Assembly: GCA_963785985.1 (NCBI GenBank)
Contig: CAWAXD010000017.1
Coordinates: forward strand, 31,085-95,084
Length of the DNA: 64,000 nucleotides
Reading direction: 5' to 3'
Source of the DNA: an uncultured delta proteobacterium
GTDB taxonomy: Bacteria; Myxococcota_A; UBA9160; SMWR01
In this document: piece by piece, positions 2-4,023 of the stretch
How the letters are laid out: each line of letters opens with the position of its first letter
How positions within the stretch are numbered: position 1 is the first letter of the stretch
Made by a program: the position numbers and the translations under genes
The notes under the pieces: model-generated
The model's database searches: none
What the model was told of the DNA's origin: nothing
The model's input: the letters and a program-made list of their open reading frames with translations, nothing else

Positions 2-1486
2 GCGCCTCCCATGCTGTCGGCTCCCATCGACTACGCGGCGCTCTGGAGCCGCGCGCAGACGATCACCGCGCTCGGCCGCCCCAGCCTGAGCTTCTCGGAC
101 GAGGACCTCGCGCTCGCGCTCAGCGTGCACGCGGCCAAGCACGAGTGGAGCGAGCTGCGTTGGATCTGCGACCTCGCCTGGCTGGTCGCGCGCAAGCCGC
201 AGCTCGATTGGAGCGAGGCGCTCCTGCGCGCGCGGCAGCAAGGCTGCGAGCGCATGTTGTTGATCGGACTGGCGCTGACACAGCGACTGCTCGGGCAAGC
301 GCTGCCGCCGCCGGCGGTGCACCGACTCGCAGCGGATCCGGTCGCGCAGCTGCTCGCCGCCGAACAGGAGGCGAAGCTGTTCGATCCGACGTGGCATCCA
401 CCCTCGATCTTCCAGGTCAGCCGCTTCCGGCTGCGCATGCGCGAGCGGCTGCGCGACCGGGCGCTCTGCCTGGTGCGAACGCTGGCGACGCCGCGCCTCG
501 AGCACGTCGACCTGTTGGCGCTTCCCACCCGCCTCGCCTTCCTGTACGCGCCGCTGAAGCTCGTTCACGACTATGCGGTGATGCCCGTGTGGCGCGCCGC
601 GCGCCCCGTCCTCGAACGTGTCAGCATCGCTCGGCTGCGTCCTACGCCCGTCGAGGCAGTCAGGGCCCGCGCCGCATGGTCCGAGCGCAGCGCGAGCTGG
701 GACCGTCTCGTCGACGCCGGCTCCGACGTCGCGCGCCAGCTCGACGGCGCGCTGCTCGAGGCCGGCGATGTCGGCCCGGCGCAGCGCATCCTCGATCTCG
801 CGTCCGGAGTGGGGCCGTCGGCGCTCGCCGCCGCAGAACGCGCGGGCGAGCATGGTTTCGTGATGGCCAGTGACTTCGTTCCCGAAATGCTCGCGGGTGT
901 GCGGCGACGCGCACGCGCTGCGGGTCTCACGAGTCTTCGCTACTTCGCGGCCGACATGAATGCGCTGCCGCTTCGCGATGCCTGCGTCGACCGGGTCCTG
1001 TGTCGCTTTGGAATCATGTTCTGCGCCGATGTCGATCGCGCCCTCGGCGAAGTGCTGCGCGTGCTGCGCGCAGGCGGGCGGGCCGCATGGCTCGTGTGGG
1101 GACCGCTCGAGGACAACACCCTCGCGCACGTCCTCGACGAGGTCACGAACGGGTTCTTCGCCGGCCGCGCGCCGCTCGCCAACCGCGCCCCGTTTCGCTT
1201 CGCCGACACGGGAACTCTCGAGGCGGCGCTGACGCGCGCCGGCTTTCGCGCAATCGCGGCACACGAGGTCCGGCTGGACATGCCGGCGGCTACGAATCGG
1301 GACTTCTGGCGGCCCCAGCTCGAGCTCGCCTGCGGCCCCTTCCTGGAAGCGCTGCCAGCGGCCACGCGCCGGGCCCTCGACGGCGCGCTCGAGGCCGCGT
1401 TCGCCTCCCGGCGAACCGCAGCCGGGCTGCGCCTGCGCGTGCATGCCCGACTCGTGACGGGATGCAAGGCGAGGCCGCCGGCCTAG
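2..1486 (+). CDS. Nucleotidyltransferase-family (NTP_transf_5-like) C-terminal region fused to a UbiE-like class I SAM methyltransferase; probably 5'-truncated by the window edge
   Basis: N-terminal EDLALALSVHAAKHEWSELRWICDL motif typical of NTP_transf_5 proteins. C-terminal RILDLASGVG, SDFVPEML and DRVLCRFGIMF methyltransferase motifs. Frame is open back to the window start. Confidence 0.75.
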   Translation, partial: APPMLSAPIDYAALWSRAQTITALGRPSLSFSDEDLALALSVHAAKHEWSELRWICDLAWLVARKPQLDWSEALLRARQQGCERMLLIGLALTQRLLGQALPPPAVHRLAADPVAQLLAAEQEAKLFDPTWHPPSIFQVSRFRLRMRERLRDRALCLVRTLATPRLEHVDLLALPTRLAFLYAPLKLVHDYAVMPVWRAARPVLERVSIARLRPTPVEAVRARAAWSERSASWDRLVDAGSDVARQLDGALLEAGDVGPAQRILDLASGVGPSALAAAERAGEHGFVMASDFVPEMLAGVRRRARAAGLTSLRYFAADMNALPLRDACVDRVLCRFGIMFCADVDRALGEVLRVLRAGGRAAWLVWGPLEDNTLAHVLDEVTNGFFAGRAPLANRAPFRFADTGTLEAALTRAGFRAIAAHEVRLDMPAATNRDFWRPQLELACGPFLEALPAATRRALDGALEAAFASRRTAAGLRLRVHARLVTGCKARPPA

Positions 1487-2859
1487 TCGCAGAGGCTCCG
1501 GATACACGCGACCGCCTCGCCTGCCGAGGCCATTGAAAGGGCATAGCAGTCGACACCGCGAATCCACTGCACGAGACGGCGCACCTTCTCCCGATCCAGG
1601 AGCTCCGGCAGGACGACGCACTCCTGCAGGAGATCCTTCAGCGCCGTCGCCCGATCGAGCGGCTCGAGCGCCGTCGGACGCTCGGGCGTGTAGCGCGGAA
1701 ACACCAGCCAGCCGATCGCGCGGCTCTTGGTCGGCACGGGCCCGCCGTCGCGAGCGAAGGGGTCCAGGTAACGCACCCATTGCTCGTCCTGGCGCCGATG
1801 CACCGGAAGATCGCGGAGCTCGGGGAACCACGGCGCCAGCACGTCGACGGCGCCGGGCTTCACCGTCAGCGCGAGCGGCACCGGCCGGACAGCGAGCGTC
1901 TCGCTCTCGAGCAACGCCACCTCGTCCGAGAAGTACTCGCAGCCGGCGGCGACCAGGGCGCCGGTGAGCGTCGTCTTGCCGCTTCCCGGAGGCGCGGGAA
2001 GCACGACACAGCGCTCCCCGAGCCCGACGACTCCGGCGTGGATCTCCATCCAGTAGGAGGCCCGCTCGAGCGCGACCTGGCGCAGCAGGGCCTTGATCAC
2101 GGGTGCCAGCTGCTCGAGCGCGCGGCCCTCGGCGACCCGCGCGCCGTCGCGATGGATGTCGTGATGCGCAGCGCGCTCCTCGATGACGGTGCACACTTCG
2201 TCGCGCGCCGGCTCCAGGGTCTCGAGATGAGCGAGCGGGGGGTGCACGGCGCACTCCGCAGCCGGCGTGCCGTAGTGGATGGCGAGCGTCGTCCCGAGCA
2301 TCCGGTAGCGCCGGACGCTGGAGGCGTGCGGGGTCTGGCACGCCGCCTCGGCCGCGCGCGGGCGGCGCGCGAGGCTGCGCCGCCGTCGCGCGGAACGCTT
2401 CCCCGTCACGGTGCTTGCCTGGAGCGCGAGCTGCTCGGGATCGATCGAGAGCAAGGCGTCCACGTCCTCTCCGCCCAGACCGAGAGCCCGCGCAGTTCCC
2501 CTCGCATCGCGCGCGAAGTCGCGGCGGAGCCCCTCGTTGCACAGCAGACGACCCAAGGCGGTGTTCAGGTGGATGCGCGGAGGCGCAAGATCGCCGGCAT
2601 TCGCGAGCCAGCCGAGCCCCCGCCAGCGATGCAGTAGCTCGGCGACGTGGCGCTCAGCTTCGGCCGGCGCCATCTCGAAGGCGCTGGCGTATGCGGATAC
2701 GATCTGCCCCGCCGGGTAGCCTTCCTCGACGGCACACCACACGAAGGTGGCGGGTGCATTGAAGACGTGCAGCTCCTGGTGCGCCTCGGAGAAGAAGACA
2801 CCGGACTGCTCGAGGACGAAGAGACAGGCGCCATCGGCGACCTGCGGCGACGCGCTCAC
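1483..2859 (-). CDS. Fusion of PqqD/RRE domain + helical DUF692-partner-like domain + HPr-kinase-like P-loop kinase (458 aa)
   Basis: GTG at 2859 overlaps the DUF692 stop (GTGA). RRE: ELHVFNAPATFVWC...AERHVAELLHRWRGLGWL. Middle domain: ALGRLLCNEGLRRDFARD...LGL...EQLALQA...KR. Kinase: IHAGVV...PAPPGSGKTTL...YFSDE. Confidence 0.8.
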   Translation of the reverse strand: MSASPQVADGACLFVLEQSGVFFSEAHQELHVFNAPATFVWCAVEEGYPAGQIVSAYASAFEMAPAEAERHVAELLHRWRGLGWLANAGDLAPPRIHLNTALGRLLCNEGLRRDFARDARGTARALGLGGEDVDALLSIDPEQLALQASTVTGKRSARRRRSLARRPRAAEAACQTPHASSVRRYRMLGTTLAIHYGTPAAECAVHPPLAHLETLEPARDEVCTVIEERAAHHDIHRDGARVAEGRALEQLAPVIKALLRQVALERASYWMEIHAGVVGLGERCVVLPAPPGSGKTTLTGALVAAGCEYFSDEVALLESETLAVRPVPLALTVKPGAVDVLAPWFPELRDLPVHRRQDEQWVRYLDPFARDGGPVPTKSRAIGWLVFPRYTPERPTALEPLDRATALKDLLQECVVLPELLDREKVRRLVQWIRGVDCYALSMASAGEAVACIRSLCD

Positions 2860-3665
2860 AGTGCAGCCCTCGTTTCGGCTGCAACCGGCCCGCGCAGCGC
2901 GCGCAGCTCGGCGGCCAGCTCGTCGAGCGCCGGGAAGTCCGCGTCGCGCTCGATGATGGCGGCGCGTGGGCGGGCCCATGCGATCGCGACGCGGATCAAG
3001 CTCCAGAGGTCGTCCTGGATGCCGTCCGAGTGCACATCGTGCCACCGGCCGCCAGCGTAGCGATAGCCGACCACATGTAGCTGCACGACCCGCTCGGGAT
3101 CGAGATCGCGCATCCAGCTGATCGGATCGAACCCGTGGTTGCGCGCGTTCACGAACAGGTTGGTCACGTCGAGCAGGATTCCGCAGCCCGCGCGTTCGCA
3201 GATCTTGTTCAGGAAGTCGGTCTCGGACAGATGCCCGCGGATCCGGATGTGGGAGGTGATGTTCTCGAGCAGGAGCAGCCGACCGCAGCGCTCCATCACC
3301 TCCGCAGCGTGGTCGGCGAGCACGCCGAGCATCTCGTGATTGGGACACACGGGATTGAAGTGACCGAGGTCGACCTCCTCCGTACGGCAGAATCCCAGGT
3401 GCTCGCTCACCCACGCGGGCCTGGCTGCCTCGACCACACGCGCGAACCACTCGAGCGGGCCGGGATCCAGGGGGCCGGGCTTGCCGAGCGAGAGTCCGAG
3501 GCCGTGGACCATCACGGGGCGGTTGCGCGAGAGCTGCTCGAGACGCGCCAGACTGCCCTGCTTGTAGAAGTGGTCGGCGGTGATCTCGACGCACTCGATC
3601 TCCGGCGGGCGCGACTCGATCCAATCCGCCAGCTCGGGTCGATACCCGACCCCCACGAGTGTCAT
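2856..3665 (-). CDS. DUF692 family multinuclear non-heme iron oxidase (MNIO; MbnB/TglH/ChrH-like)
   Basis: GVGYR start and motifs VHGLGLSLG, VSEHL, LLENI, LLDVTNLFVN, QLHVVG, DVH, IERD. Confidence 0.92.
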   Translation of the reverse strand: MTLVGVGYRPELADWIESRPPEIECVEITADHFYKQGSLARLEQLSRNRPVMVHGLGLSLGKPGPLDPGPLEWFARVVEAARPAWVSEHLGFCRTEEVDLGHFNPVCPNHEMLGVLADHAAEVMERCGRLLLLENITSHIRIRGHLSETDFLNKICERAGCGILLDVTNLFVNARNHGFDPISWMRDLDPERVVQLHVVGYRYAGGRWHDVHSDGIQDDLWSLIRVAIAWARPRAAIIERDADFPALDELAAELRALRGPVAAETRAAL

Positions 3666-3716: not shown

Positions 3717-3923
3717 TCAGTCCGCGCCGCAGCCGCAGCCGCCGCCGTACGTGTCGGCCACCTGGGCGGAGGCCACCTTCGTATTGGCCGCGATTAGCAG
3801 CGCCACGGCCGGGGCCGTCGCCGCCGCCTTGCCGACGGTCTTGAGGAACTCGCGGCGCGCCATGGCCTCGGGATCTGAATCCTTCTCGGATGCGTTCGAG
3901 ATCGTACTGGAGATTTCTGCCAT
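3717..3923 (-). CDS. Putative RiPP precursor peptide (68 aa) with Tat-like RREFLK leader and C-terminal YGGGCGCGAD
   Basis: AGAAGGAG RBS 6 nt before the ATG at 3923. Short ORF directly upstream of the MNIO gene on the same strand, with a Cys-x-Cys tail. Confidence 0.8.
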   Translation of the reverse strand: MAEISSTISNASEKDSDPEAMARREFLKTVGKAAATAPAVALLIAANTKVASAQVADTYGGGCGCGAD

Positions 3924-3982
3924 CGGGAGCTCCTTCTGAGCCGCAGCTCCGTCGTCTCGCGAGCACGGGCGCGGGGAACCCG

Positions 3983-4023
3983 ACTCTACCATGAATGGAA
4001 CTCGAAATGACAGCGTTTCGAGT
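3983..4023 (-). promoter_or_regulatory. Putative extended -10 element (TGGTAGAGT) with an adjacent 24-bp inverted repeat (possible operator)
   Basis: TGnTAGAGT on the minus strand at 3983-3991. ACTCGAAATG-ACAG-CGTTTCGAGT at 4000-4023 (9/10 arm match). Confidence 0.4.

What the first reader, a model, noticed from the sequence alone, without database searches (positions are those of the whole stretch)
2..4023. Candidate new RiPP system: MNIO (DUF692) + RRE-kinase + nucleotidyltransferase-methyltransferase acting on a Cys-tailed precursor
Seen: precursor (3717-3923), DUF692 and the PqqD-kinase fusion form one minus-strand unit, the last two coupled by GTGA. They meet a convergent NTase-MTase fusion with a 4-bp overlap. 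Known: MNIOs (MbnB, TglH, ChrH, BufB, HvfB) modify peptide Cys residues. HPr-like kinases with PqqD and NTP_transf_5 enzymes occur in phosphorylated lasso-peptide clusters (paeninodin, pseudomycoidin) and in HPr-rel-A loci. I know of no characterised pathway combining the two toolkits, and no lasso cyclase is visible here. Inference: the product is an exported peptide with oxidised Cys plus phospho, nucleotidyl or methyl decoration, possibly a metal chelator.
Basis: partly seen in the sequence, partly recalled or inferred. Interest (0 to 1): 0.92.

Follow-up and report, generated by a model that had tools for sequence, protein, structure and literature searches.

The report
Tat-exported Cys peptide with MNIO and kinase
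A small four-gene cassette appears to make a short, chemically modified, exported cysteine peptide by combining two peptide-tailoring toolkits not yet described together, and it points to a large unstudied family of such exported peptides.

Summary
On the minus strand lie a 68-aa precursor (3717-3923), an MNIO (2856-3665) and a PqqD/RRE-HprK-like kinase fusion (1483-2859, GTGA-coupled). They converge with a 4-bp overlap on an NTP_transf_5-methyltransferase fusion.

New here:
- The leader is a textbook twin-arginine (Tat) signal peptide, and the core is QVADTYGGGCGCGAD.
- Precursor, MNIO-like gene and long-form RRE-kinase recur in six other genomes from several phyla. The MNIO is fused to the RRE-kinase in one of them and in four metagenome proteins.
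- A complex model places the signal peptide's hydrophobic stretch on the RRE (0.83 against 0.01 for the best control).
- The precursor family is large: 1,156 clusters at 50% identity.
- Only the window's copy keeps all eight conserved metal-site residues (1 of 11 kinase-linked MNIOs). Five relatives carry YcaO/SagB azole machinery instead.
- The same genome holds an MNIO-less paralogous system.

The closest known system is the linear polyphosphorylated peptides (LPP) of Bacillota (2026), which has RRE, HprK-like kinase and NTP-transferase genes but no MNIO and no Tat leader.

Verdict: a real, uncharacterised hybrid RiPP cassette, a new variant of known kinds. The chemistry is inferred, and nothing has been tested experimentally.

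The parts
3717..3923 (-). Precursor peptide gene, 68 aa: MAEISS...ARREFLK...ASA|QVADTYGGGCGCGAD. Stop codon at 3717-3719.
   Evidence: ORF and sequence. Homologues lie directly upstream of the MNIO-like gene in L002-L006 and L121. The family profile finds 1,156 clusters.
3930..3935 (-). Shine-Dalgarno AAGGAG, 6 nt before ATG 3923.
   Evidence: Read directly.
3765..3923 (-). Leader, a twin-arginine signal peptide (residues 1-53). It has an extended n-region, R23-R24-E-F-L-K, an Ala/Pro-rich h-region (33-46), K49 in the c-region and A51-S52-A53.
   Evidence: Read from the sequence. R23, R24, F26 and L43 are invariant and P38 nearly so in 13 precursors. In the complex model residues 19-55 sit on the RRE. 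TatC is present in the genome.
3720..3764 (-). Core peptide, residues 54-68: QVADTYGGGCGCGAD (T58, Y59, C63, C65).
   Evidence: Read from the sequence. The CGCG motif recurs in L002 and L121 and in 12 of the best 150 family representatives.
2856..3665 (-). MNIO (DUF692) enzyme, 269 aa, with all eight conserved metal-site positions (H54, H89, E134, D166, H197, D210, H212, E239).
   Evidence: PF05114 at 230.7 bits. BufB model 202 bits, below its cut-off of 310. Alignments to 3bww, TglH and MbnB. Ligand columns. Tree.
2599..2859 (-). RRE (PqqD-like) domain of the fusion protein, residues 1-87. The GTG start overlaps the MNIO stop (GTGA).
   Evidence: PF05402. Profile hit to lasso TbiB1, E 9e-6. 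Fold match to TbiB1 bound to its leader, TM 0.89-0.90, rmsd 1.1-1.2. Interface with the precursor.
2371..2568 (-). Five-helix insert, residues 98-163, present only in the MNIO-linked long forms of the RRE-kinase.
   Evidence: Alignment (absent from the short forms). AF2 helices 98-163. Weak NHLP-clan hit NF038399, E 2e-5, below cut-off. A related domain starts the ORF after the broken MNIO in G363.
1483..2319 (-). HprK/PEPCK-like kinase module, residues 181-458, with P-loop PGSGKTT (G292, G294, K295) and D312-E313. Includes the stop codon at 1483-1485.
   Evidence: TIGR04352 E 2.2e-29. Invariant columns in 30 homologues. Fold hits to PEPCK and HprK/P. Model pLDDT 92.
1..1486 (+). Part inside the window of the 684-aa NTP_transf_5-methyltransferase fusion (the gene starts at window -568 = L001:17432). 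The NTase domain ends near window 300, a family-specific extension follows, and the methyltransferase domain spans about window 780-1090.
   Evidence: Pfam. D124 and D126 (GDLDLLV) are invariant in 8 NTases. The same fusion lies convergent in L002.

Best explanation
This is a four-gene RiPP-type cassette that makes a short, exported, modified peptide.

Shown by sequence and comparison: the 68-aa precursor carries a twin-arginine signal peptide as its leader and a 15-residue core, QVADTYGGGCGCGAD.

Supported by a model: the N-terminal PqqD/RRE domain of the 458-aa fusion protein grips the hydrophobic stretch of that signal peptide (P38-A46) by strand pairing, as lasso B1 proteins grip their leaders. 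This holds the peptide in the cytoplasm next to the enzymes.

Inferred steps:
1. The MNIO keeps every conserved metal-site residue and has no YcaO rival in the genome. It oxidises C63 and C65 to thiooxazole or oxazolone-thioamide-type groups.
2. The HprK-like P-loop kinase phosphorylates a hydroxyl near the start of the core (T58 or Y59), as LppK does on Ser3 of its core.
3. The convergent NTP_transf_5-methyltransferase decorates the peptide further. By analogy with PsmN this may be a hexose-type group on the phosphate. A methyl group may go on sulfur, because the methyltransferase domain occurs only in the two loci that lack YcaO.
4. On release from the RRE, the Tat system exports the peptide and signal peptidase I cuts after ASA.

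The product is most likely a periplasmic or secreted metal-binding peptide.
For: Gene set and coupling.

Conservation:
- Of 80 genome loci kept for RRE-kinase relatives, 5 (L002-L006) have an MNIO-like gene directly upstream. A sixth, L121, was found in the same order. All 6 have a homologous precursor directly upstream of it.
- The MNIO is fused to the RRE-kinase in L002 (785 aa) and in P0022, P0023, P0025 and P0028.
- The window's MNIO and all 9 other kinase-linked MNIOs included form one clade with P0121, P0127 and P0133 (13 rows, SH-aLRT 99).
- The precursor HMM hits 17 of the 20 closest loci plus the own-genome paralogue, and 0 of 60 distant loci. Seven of those hits were not in the training alignment.

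Binding model: ipSAE 0.83 (three runs: 0.83, 0.83, 0.81) against a best control of 0.01. In the tool's calibration this mark was reached by 58 of 80 solved complexes and 2 of 110 mismatched pairs. The runs agree in at least 80% of contacts and the partner pLDDT is 60-63. The tightest pairs are RRE 28-37 with precursor 38-46. RRE-leader complexes are solved, so part of this pass may come from likeness to them.

Enzyme integrity:
- 8 of 8 MNIO positions are kept, as in all 21 stand-alone homologues aligned.
- The kinase P-loop and D312/E313 are invariant in 30 sequences.
- The NTase DxD motif is invariant in 8 sequences.
- The RRE and HprK/PEPCK folds are recovered.

Other support: no YcaO in the genome at E<=1e-5; TatC present.

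Precedents read in papers:
- LppK polyphosphorylates Ser3 of a linear core, and its cluster holds an RRE and an NTP-transferase (PMC13381572, sections 6 and 7).
- PsmN is needed for +162 Da on the phosphorylated peptide and depends on D134/D136 (PMC6993621, passages).
- MNIO site 1 has two His ligands and binds the Cys thiolate (bioRxiv 10.64898/2026.07.17.739211, passages).

Metal theme: some family cores are His/Gly-rich, for example L018, P0323 and P0342.
Against: - In 10 of 11 kinase-linked MNIO sequences conserved metal-site residues are replaced: L002 1; L003 and L005 2 each; L004 3; L006, L121 and the four fusions 6 each. Catalysis by the MNIO is therefore not what the family conserves.
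- Four relatives have Ser-only cores.
- The window's core has no Ser. LppK did not accept Thr or Tyr in place of Ser3 (PMC13381572, section 7), so the phosphorylation site is a guess.
- The NTase gene is convergent, not co-transcribed, and was not found within 8 kb in L004 or L121.
- LppN showed no activity in the one test reported (PMC13381572, section 7).
- The complex model places only three MNIO residues near the peptide and does not place the core.
- There are no expression data, and no metal-homeostasis genes lie nearby.
- Tat export of so short a passenger is unproven.
Confidence: 0.6

Rival explanations
1. The cassette is in essence an LPP-like phosphopeptide system. The kinase and NTase do the chemistry. 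The MNIO-like protein is a scaffold or peptide-holding partner, here as in its relatives, so the exported peptide keeps free thiols (or a disulfide).
For: 10 of 11 kinase-linked MNIO sequences lack conserved metal-site residues yet are retained, some of them as fusions. The MNIO-less paralogue in the same genome (L082) and at least 11 other loci run the precursor, RRE-kinase and NTase without any MNIO.
Against: The window's copy keeps 8 of 8 positions, and its closest relatives P0121, P0127 and P0133 do too. It sits on a short branch, whereas the degenerate copies sit on long ones. The degenerate copies in genome loci go with YcaO/SagB in 5 of 6 cases (L003-L006, L121), and the window's genome has no such YcaO.
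Confidence: 0.15
2. The RRE-kinase fusion serves only as the MNIO's partner protein, for leader binding and docking, like DUF2063/RRE partners. The kinase module is catalytically idle, and the only modification is MNIO oxidation of the two Cys.
For: Most MNIOs need an RRE-bearing partner encoded just after them (PMC12452194, section 18). The helical insert occurs only in MNIO-linked forms. The core has no Ser.
Against: The P-loop G292, G294, K295 and D312/E313 are invariant across 30 homologues at 37-52% identity, which points to retained nucleotide chemistry. The kinase-NTase pair is conserved with or without an MNIO.
Confidence: 0.1
3. This is not a peptide-modification system. The short ORF is an ordinary small Tat-exported protein or a miscalled ORF, and the neighbouring enzymes act on other substrates.
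For: No expression or product data exist. Tat motifs are common.
Against: The ORF keeps its position next to the RRE-kinase in 17 of the 20 closest loci across several phyla, with a conserved leader and hypervariable tails. It has a strong ribosome-binding site. The complex model passes its controls. Of the best 150 family representatives, 143 are 110 aa or shorter.
Confidence: 0.05

Closest known systems
Linear polyphosphorylated peptides (LPP) of Bacillota: LppA/LppB/LppK/LppN/LppS/LppD (Popov et al., Nat Commun 2026, PMC13381572; outline, sections 6 and 7, and passages read)
   Same: A linear, non-lasso ribosomal peptide. An RRE binds the leader. An HprK-like kinase acts near the start of the core. 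An NTP_transf_5-type transferase of unclear role is present. The leader is removed by a signal-peptidase-I-type enzyme.
   Different: In LPP the RRE is a separate protein, the leader carries a YxxPxVL motif, a dedicated SipW-like peptidase and an MsbA-like pump are encoded, and there is no MNIO and no methyltransferase. Here the RRE is fused to the kinase, the leader is a Tat signal peptide, no peptidase or pump is encoded, an MNIO is added, and the hosts are Gram-negative lineages.
Tailoring genes of the lasso peptides paeninodin and pseudomycoidin: PsmK kinase and PsmN NTP-transferase (PMC6993621; passages read)
   Same: The same two enzyme families. PsmN's catalytic DxD motif matches D124/D126 here.
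   Different: Those enzymes act on the C-terminal Ser of a lasso peptide. Here there is no cyclase or B2 protease within about 29 kb, and the C-terminus is Asp.
MNIO RiPPs: methanobactin (MbnB), bufferins (BufB), oxazolin (HvfB) (PMC12452194, sections 13 and 16-18; bioRxiv 10.64898/2026.07.17.739211, passages)
   Same: A PF05114 enzyme with the full set of conserved metal-site residues. A Cys-bearing precursor is encoded just upstream, an RRE-bearing partner just downstream, and the product is destined for the periplasm.
   Different: It scores below the BufB, HvfB, ApyH, MbnB and ChrH equivalog cut-offs. The partner is a PqqD-kinase, not DUF2063 or MbnC. The signal is Tat, not Sec. The genome has a separate classic bufferin-like operon (L083).
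TIGR04222-type membrane proteins with Ser/Gly/Cys-rich tails next to MNIOs (PMC12452194, section 16)
   Same: The core here (GGGCGCG, or GGSGSGSS in relatives) resembles those low-complexity periplasmic tails. P0241, whose MNIO is 56% identical to the window's, is a gene product in which a membrane protein with such a tail is fused to the MNIO.
   Different: Here the tail is delivered as a free peptide behind a Tat signal. P0241 itself gave no TIGR04222 hit.
HPr-rel-A system (NCBIfam TIGR04352 HprK-related kinase A; the family name is taken from the library)
   Same: A homologous kinase module (E 2e-29) and an association with PqqD-type and NTP_transf_5 genes.
   Different: It scores 102 bits against a cut-off of 200. 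The 60 more distant loci (L022-L081), which I take to be HPr-rel-A-like (not tested against TIGR04352), have no Tat-type precursor.
Tat signal-peptide chaperones of redox enzymes (TorD, DmsD, NapD; recalled, no call)
   Same: A cytoplasmic protein binds a twin-arginine signal peptide while the passenger is matured.
   Different: The fold is unrelated, and in those systems the passenger is a cofactor-bearing enzyme, not a 15-residue peptide.

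Membership tests
MNIO (PF05114, MbnB/TglH/ChrH) | Match to the family model above its gathering score | tested here: met
   230.7 bits against 25, model positions 2-259 of 263.
MNIO (PF05114, MbnB/TglH/ChrH) | Conserved His/Asp/Glu metal-site residues | tested here: met
   H54, H89, E134, D166, H197, D210, H212 and E239 are all present, as in 21 of 21 stand-alone homologues, and align with MbnB and TglH. 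That these columns are the iron ligands is partly recalled and partly from passages.
MNIO (PF05114, MbnB/TglH/ChrH) | Partner protein with an RRE encoded next to it | tested here: met
   The RRE-kinase gene overlaps the MNIO stop codon. Natural fusions exist.
MNIO (PF05114, MbnB/TglH/ChrH) | Iron-dependent oxidation of the peptide | not testable with these tools
   Needs enzyme assays.
Bufferin maturase BufB (NF050167) with a DUF2063 partner | Score above the equivalog cut-off, a DUF2063 (PF09836) partner and a Sec signal on the precursor | tested here: not met
   202 bits against a cut-off of 310. No PF09836 on the partner. The signal is Tat-type.
LPP-type / paeninodin-type kinase toolkit | HprK-like kinase with an intact P-loop | tested here: met
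   TIGR04352 E 2.2e-29 (below the equivalog cut-off). Invariant GSGK and DE motifs. Fold hits to HprK/P (3tqf, 1kkl, 2qmh) and PEPCK.
LPP-type / paeninodin-type kinase toolkit | RRE that binds the leader | tested here: met
   PF05402. TbiB1 TM 0.89-0.90. Complex model 0.83 against 0.01. This is a model, not a measurement.
LPP-type / paeninodin-type kinase toolkit | NTP_transf_5 transferase in the cluster | tested here: met
   PF14907 at 192 bits. DxD motif invariant.
LPP-type / paeninodin-type kinase toolkit | YxxPxVLxHQ-type leader, SipW-like peptidase and MsbA-like exporter | tested here: not met
   The leader is ARREFLK...APAVALL. No peptidase or ABC exporter among the 15 neighbours scanned.
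Twin-arginine (Tat) signal peptide | S/T-R-R-x-F-L-K motif, a moderately hydrophobic h-region, a basic c-region and an AxA site | tested here: met
   A-R-R-E-F-L-K, h-region 33-46, K49 and A-S-A, read. 149 of the best 150 family members have RRxF. No signal-peptide predictor was available.
Twin-arginine (Tat) signal peptide | Tat machinery in the host and Tat-dependent export | tested here: inconclusive
   TatC is present at 225 bits. Export itself is not testable here.
Lasso peptide | Asn-synthetase-like cyclase and B2 protease | tested here: not met
   Neither was found among the neighbours scanned.
TOMM / linear azole peptide (YcaO + SagB) | SagD-type cyclodehydratase and SagB dehydrogenase by the precursor | tested here: not met
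   No YcaO hit anywhere in the window's genome and only a weak, distant SagB-like hit. Both are present in the relatives L003-L006 and L121.

The most novel reading that the evidence does not exclude
The window is one member of a large, undescribed superfamily of Tat-exported RiPPs, with at least 1,156 precursor clusters at 50% identity. In it the twin-arginine signal peptide is itself the leader. A PqqD-type RRE fused to an HprK-like kinase binds the signal's hydrophobic stretch and so acts like a Tat proofreading chaperone, holding back export until tailoring is done. Different branches plug different heterocycle-forming machinery into this chassis: an active MNIO here, and YcaO/SagB with a degenerate pseudo-MNIO elsewhere. 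The window's product would be a periplasmic copper-type chelator that carries both thio-heterocycles and a decorated phosphate.
Probability: 0.35. Interest if true: 0.88.

Novelty: new variant of a known kind. Interest (0 to 1): 0.76.

Why it matters
If this reading is right, it joins two active areas, MNIO chemistry and phosphorylated RiPPs, in one minimal four-gene cassette that needs no dedicated protease or pump.

It would give the first natural case I could find of a RiPP whose leader is a Tat signal peptide held by an RRE. It also exposes a family of more than a thousand short exported peptides with hypervariable Cys-, Ser-, Gly- or His-rich tails, whose products and roles (metal handling is the obvious guess) are unknown.

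The series running from the intact MNIO here to degenerate copies beside YcaO/SagB in relatives is a natural experiment. It shows how a catalytic domain can turn into a scaffold when another enzyme takes over its job.

The cassette is small enough to test directly by co-expression and mass spectrometry.

Tried and rejected
- Metagenome scan with the MNIO protein: 130 pattern matches, of which only one was a relative, at 30% identity on a 1.5-kb contig. It gave no context for the closest MNIO homologues (53-62% identity). Their neighbourhoods therefore remain unknown, including those of P0121, P0127 and P0133, which share the window's clade.
- Phylum sample (401 genomes): 32 genomes have a match at E<=1e-40, but apart from the window itself none exceeds 39% identity over the full length. 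G363 holds a remnant that is 51-57% identical, frameshifted, and followed by a transposase-like (IS) ORF.
- Order sample with the kinase fusion: 2 of 151 genomes, counting the window's own. It was not found in the two same-genus genomes searched.
- RNA evidence: no RNA holder was listed.
- Laid contigs: only short, low-depth pieces of related strains. Nothing usable covered the precursor.
- Promoter and terminator scan: no promoter-like site, and terminator-like sites only at 4388-4414 on the + strand.
- An early idea was that Ser-only cores go with degenerate MNIOs. I dropped it when L121 showed Cys cores beside a degenerate MNIO. The link that holds in the 7 genome loci is YcaO/SagB present (5 loci, 2-6 positions lost) against absent (2 loci, 0-1 lost).
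- P0241's N-terminal part was tested as TIGR04222 and gave no hit.
- PF27840, which is precomputed on short-form homologues, is not in the Pfam copy I could search.
- Supplements were closed. Table S1 and Fig. 5b of PMC12452194, and the Supplementary Data of PMC13381572, could list this gene combination. I could not check, and my statement that it is undescribed rests and on main texts only.
- The taxon of the window's genome was not determined.

Full report
WHAT IS THERE. On the minus strand lie a short ORF (3717-3923, 68 aa), an MNIO gene (2856-3665, 269 aa) and a 458-aa gene (1483-2859). The start of the last gene, GTG, overlaps the MNIO stop as GTGA. The short ORF has AAGGAG six bases before its ATG.

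A plus-strand gene runs off the window's left end and finishes at 1486, so it shares four bases with the 3' end of the 458-aa gene. The window is G000:C17:31085-95084. With the upstream DNA (L001) this gene is 684 aa, NTP_transf_5 (192 bits) followed by a class-I methyltransferase.

Other domain calls:
- The MNIO scores 230.7 bits on PF05114. It falls below every NCBIfam equivalog cut-off (BufB 202 against 310, HvfB 164 against 360).
- The 458-aa protein has PqqD at residues 28-85 and an HprK_rel_A match at 265-456 (E 2e-29, 102 bits against a cut-off of 200).

An AlphaFold2 model from 30 homologues is confident (pLDDT 92, pTM 0.88). It shows four parts: an RRE (1-87), a five-helix insert (98-163), an alpha/beta domain and a P-loop domain. 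Foldseek matches the RRE to lasso TbiB1 bound to its leader (TM 0.89-0.90, rmsd 1.1-1.2) and matches the rest to PEP carboxykinase and HprK/P.

None of the 15 flanking proteins scanned, from -16.5 kb to +12.6 kb, is a lasso cyclase, a protease or an ABC pump.

THE PRECURSOR IS A TAT SUBSTRATE. The 68-aa product reads MAEISSTISNASEKDSDPEAMA-RREFLK-TVGKAAATAPAVALLIAA-NTKVASA | QVADTYGGGCGCGAD. That is a canonical twin-arginine motif, an Ala/Pro-rich hydrophobic stretch, a lysine in the c-region and an AxA site, followed by a 15-residue tail with two Cys. This is my reading of the sequence; no signal-peptide predictor was available. TatC is present in the genome (225 bits).

CO-OCCURRENCE. A search with the 458-aa protein found 166 proteins at E<=1e-3 among 8,000 scored candidates.
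- About 30 of the 120 listed cover its full length at 34-50% identity.
- Four of the 120 (P0022, P0023, P0025, P0028; 736-801 aa) also carry PF05114. They are natural MNIO-RRE-kinase fusions.

- By tblastn, 5 of the 80 (L002-L006) have an MNIO-like gene directly upstream. These are MAGs labelled Rhodospirillales, Terriglobia (two), Competibacter and Burkholderiales.
- In L002 the MNIO and the RRE-kinase form one 785-aa ORF.
- A sixth locus (L121) turned up in a genome of the window's own order (2 of 151 genomes, counting the window's own).
- All six have one or two homologous Tat-type precursors directly upstream.
- NTP_transf_5 genes lie in 4 of the 6. They were not found within 8 kb in L004 or L121.
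- L002 has the same convergent NTase-methyltransferase fusion as the window.

A profile of 13 precursors hits 17 of the 20 closest RRE-kinase loci, plus a paralogue in the window's own genome, and hits none of the 60 more distant loci. Seven of the hit loci had not contributed to the profile.

The window's genome holds a second, MNIO-less copy of the system on contig C10. It has a precursor, a short-form RRE-kinase and a convergent NTase without a methyltransferase. The genome also holds an ordinary bufferin-like operon on C14.

DOES THE PEPTIDE BIND? A three-chain model (MNIO, RRE-kinase, precursor, each with its alignment) scored 0.83, 0.83 and 0.81. The three controls scored 0.00, 0.01 and 0.00. 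The runs agree in at least 80% of contacts, and the partner pLDDT is 60-63. In the tool's calibration 58 of 80 solved complexes and 2 of 110 mismatched pairs reach this mark.

The confident interface is precursor residues 19-55 on RRE residues 12-46, with the tightest pairs between RRE 28-37 and precursor 38-46. Further contacts fall at 155-163 and 407-427 of the fusion. Only three MNIO residues touch the peptide, and the core is not placed. RRE-leader complexes have been solved, so the pass shows likeness and is not proof. Unrelated peptides failed.

A LARGE PRECURSOR FAMILY. The profile finds 1,156 cluster representatives at E<=1e-3 and 200 at E<=1e-10 among 1.84 billion. Among the best 150:
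- 149 have RRxF.
- 143 are 110 aa or shorter.
- 12 contain CGCG.
- 15 end in a GSGSS-type tail.
- 107 have a Tyr just after the signal region.

The tails are otherwise hypervariable. Some are His/Gly-rich (and L018).

THE MNIO. I took eight conserved His/Asp/Glu columns: H54, H89, E134, D166, H197, D210, H212 and E239. They align with MbnB and TglH. Their role as iron ligands is partly recalled. It is partly from a preprint stating that site 1 has two His ligands and binds the Cys thiolate, and that the site-3 residues N175, D242 and H244 of HvfB are essential.

Residues replaced at these eight columns:

| Sequence(s) | Replaced (of 8) |
|---|---|
| Window | 0 |
| 21 stand-alone homologues, P0127, P0133, P0241 | 0 |
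| L002 | 1 |
| L003, L005 | 2 each |
| L004 | 3 |
| L006, L121, the four fusion proteins | 6 each |

So 1 of 11 kinase-linked copies is intact. In a tree of 32 rows, the window, P0121, P0127, P0133 and the nine other kinase-linked copies included form one clade (SH-aLRT 99). The degenerate copies sit on long branches (quick method, 20 of 120 stand-alone hits sampled, one outgroup).

The five genome loci with the more degenerate copies all carry a ThiF-YcaO cyclodehydratase (TIGR03604, 239 bits against 219 for L003) and a SagB dehydrogenase next to the precursor. The window and L002 do not. The window's genome has no YcaO of this kind at all. L002 has a radical SAM/SPASM gene instead.

The methyltransferase domain is found only in these two YcaO-less loci.

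The closest stand-alone MNIOs are 53-62% identical, and their contexts are unknown. One of them, P0241, is read as a fusion with a zinc-ribbon membrane protein that ends in a Ser/Gly/Cys-rich tail. That tail recalls the TIGR04222 tails described in PMC12452194 (section 16), although P0241 gave no TIGR04222 hit.

HOW IT MOST LIKELY WORKS. Shown: the gene set, its conservation, the fusions, the intact catalytic motifs, the Tat-type leader and a passing binding model.

Inferred:
1. The RRE holds the signal peptide.
2. The intact MNIO oxidises C63 and C65, as MNIOs do with Cys in methanobactins, bufferins and oxazolin (abstracts; passages).
3. The kinase phosphorylates a hydroxyl near the start of the core. 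The precedent is LppK on Ser3 of LPP (PMC13381572, section 7).
4. The NTase adds to the phosphate. The precedent is PsmN with +162 Da, dependent on D134/D136 (PMC6993621); here D124 and D126 are invariant.
5. The methyltransferase acts on an MNIO-made sulfur group. This is a guess based on its distribution.
6. Tat exports the peptide and signal peptidase I cleaves it.

Weak points:
- The core has Thr and Tyr but no Ser, and LppK rejected Thr and Tyr.
- LppN was inactive in its only reported test.
- The NTase gene is convergent, not co-transcribed.
- The degenerate MNIOs in relatives show that the family does not depend on MNIO catalysis.

COMPARISON AND NOVELTY. The nearest described system is LPP (2026). 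[quoted passage not shown] The window differs in five ways:
- The RRE is fused to the kinase.
- The leader is a Tat signal.
- No peptidase or pump is encoded.
- An MNIO is added.
- A methyltransferase is fused to the NTase.

The MNIO landscape paper (PMC12452194) has no occurrence of kinase, PqqD, Tat, twin-arginine, nucleotidyl or HPr in its main text. Its sections 13 and 16-18, which I read, describe Sec-type signals and DUF2063-type partners.

Literature searches:
- 'MNIO' with 'HPr kinase' found 0 papers.
- HPr-rel-A-type terms found nothing relevant among the top 25 listed.
- 'Twin-arginine' with RiPP terms found only engineering or unrelated work.
- HprK-like and LPP terms found only the LPP paper.

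Supplements were closed and figures are not held, so a mention there cannot be excluded.

I file this as a new variant of known kinds: a hybrid RiPP cassette. The bolder reading is that it belongs to an unrecognised superfamily of Tat-exported RiPPs whose leader is the signal peptide.

LIMITS. There are no expression data (no RNA holder listed). The habitat is not established, and the taxon was not determined. The genome is 79% complete.

Noticed in passing
L001:7604-13909 (+), i.e. window -10396..-4091: A 2,101-aa ORF in which Enolase_C (residues 316-597) comes before Enolase_N (722-824). It ends in PPDK_N and a PEP-utilising mobile domain. This is an odd permuted enolase-phosphotransferase giant.
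   Followed up: no
L082 (G000:C10:54000-68000): NTase about 5870-7039 (+), short RRE-kinase 7044-8234 (-), precursor about 8422-8590 (-): A paralogous, MNIO-less copy of the system in the same genome. It has the same convergent layout but no methyltransferase. Its precursor is ...ARRDFIKT...TSTNPYGNGGTDHEIPVYPSHYQTNDWFHSWISNFFHRR.
   Followed up: partly
L083 (G000:C14:912000-925000), about 5845-8100 (+): A classic bufferin-like operon: a Cys-rich small protein (...CKSAHNSCSGQNACKGQG...), then an MNIO 32% identical to the window's, then a further ORF.
   Followed up: no
L115 (G363:C26:192000-209000), 6790-9047: A remnant of a related locus. The MNIO is 51-57% identical but split by a frameshift. 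It is followed by a 115-aa ORF that begins with the insert-like helical domain, and then by a transposase-like ORF (6790-7869, not scanned against any family), which I take for an IS element.
   Followed up: partly
window 2371-2568 (-), residues 98-163 of the RRE-kinase: The helical insert gives a weak hit to an NHLP-clan leader-peptide model (NF038399, E 2e-5, 24.5 bits against 40). It could be a leader-like or an MNIO-docking element.
   Followed up: partly
proteins P0250, P0255, P0258, P0261 and P0065: Other fusions in the protein collection. MNIO joined to class-I methyltransferase domains (four proteins, 30-36% identical to the window's MNIO), and an RRE-kinase homologue carrying PF11397, which I recall as a glycosyltransferase family. 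Both suggest that methylation and glycosylation are recurrent companions of these enzymes.
   Followed up: no
window 4473-5945 (+) and 6033-7001 (-): A PMT_2 (GT-C type) glycosyltransferase lies divergent from the precursor. A DNRLRE/CBM96 protein with a weak XrtH-sorting-type tail hit is also present. Neither is conserved next to the cassette in other loci.
   Followed up: partly
L005:6820-6999 and 7012-7179; L002:2130-2351 and 2437-2643; L121:7436-7732 and 7862-8107: Tandem duplicated precursor genes whose tails differ, for example SGSCTIE against GGSGSGSS in L005.
   Followed up: no
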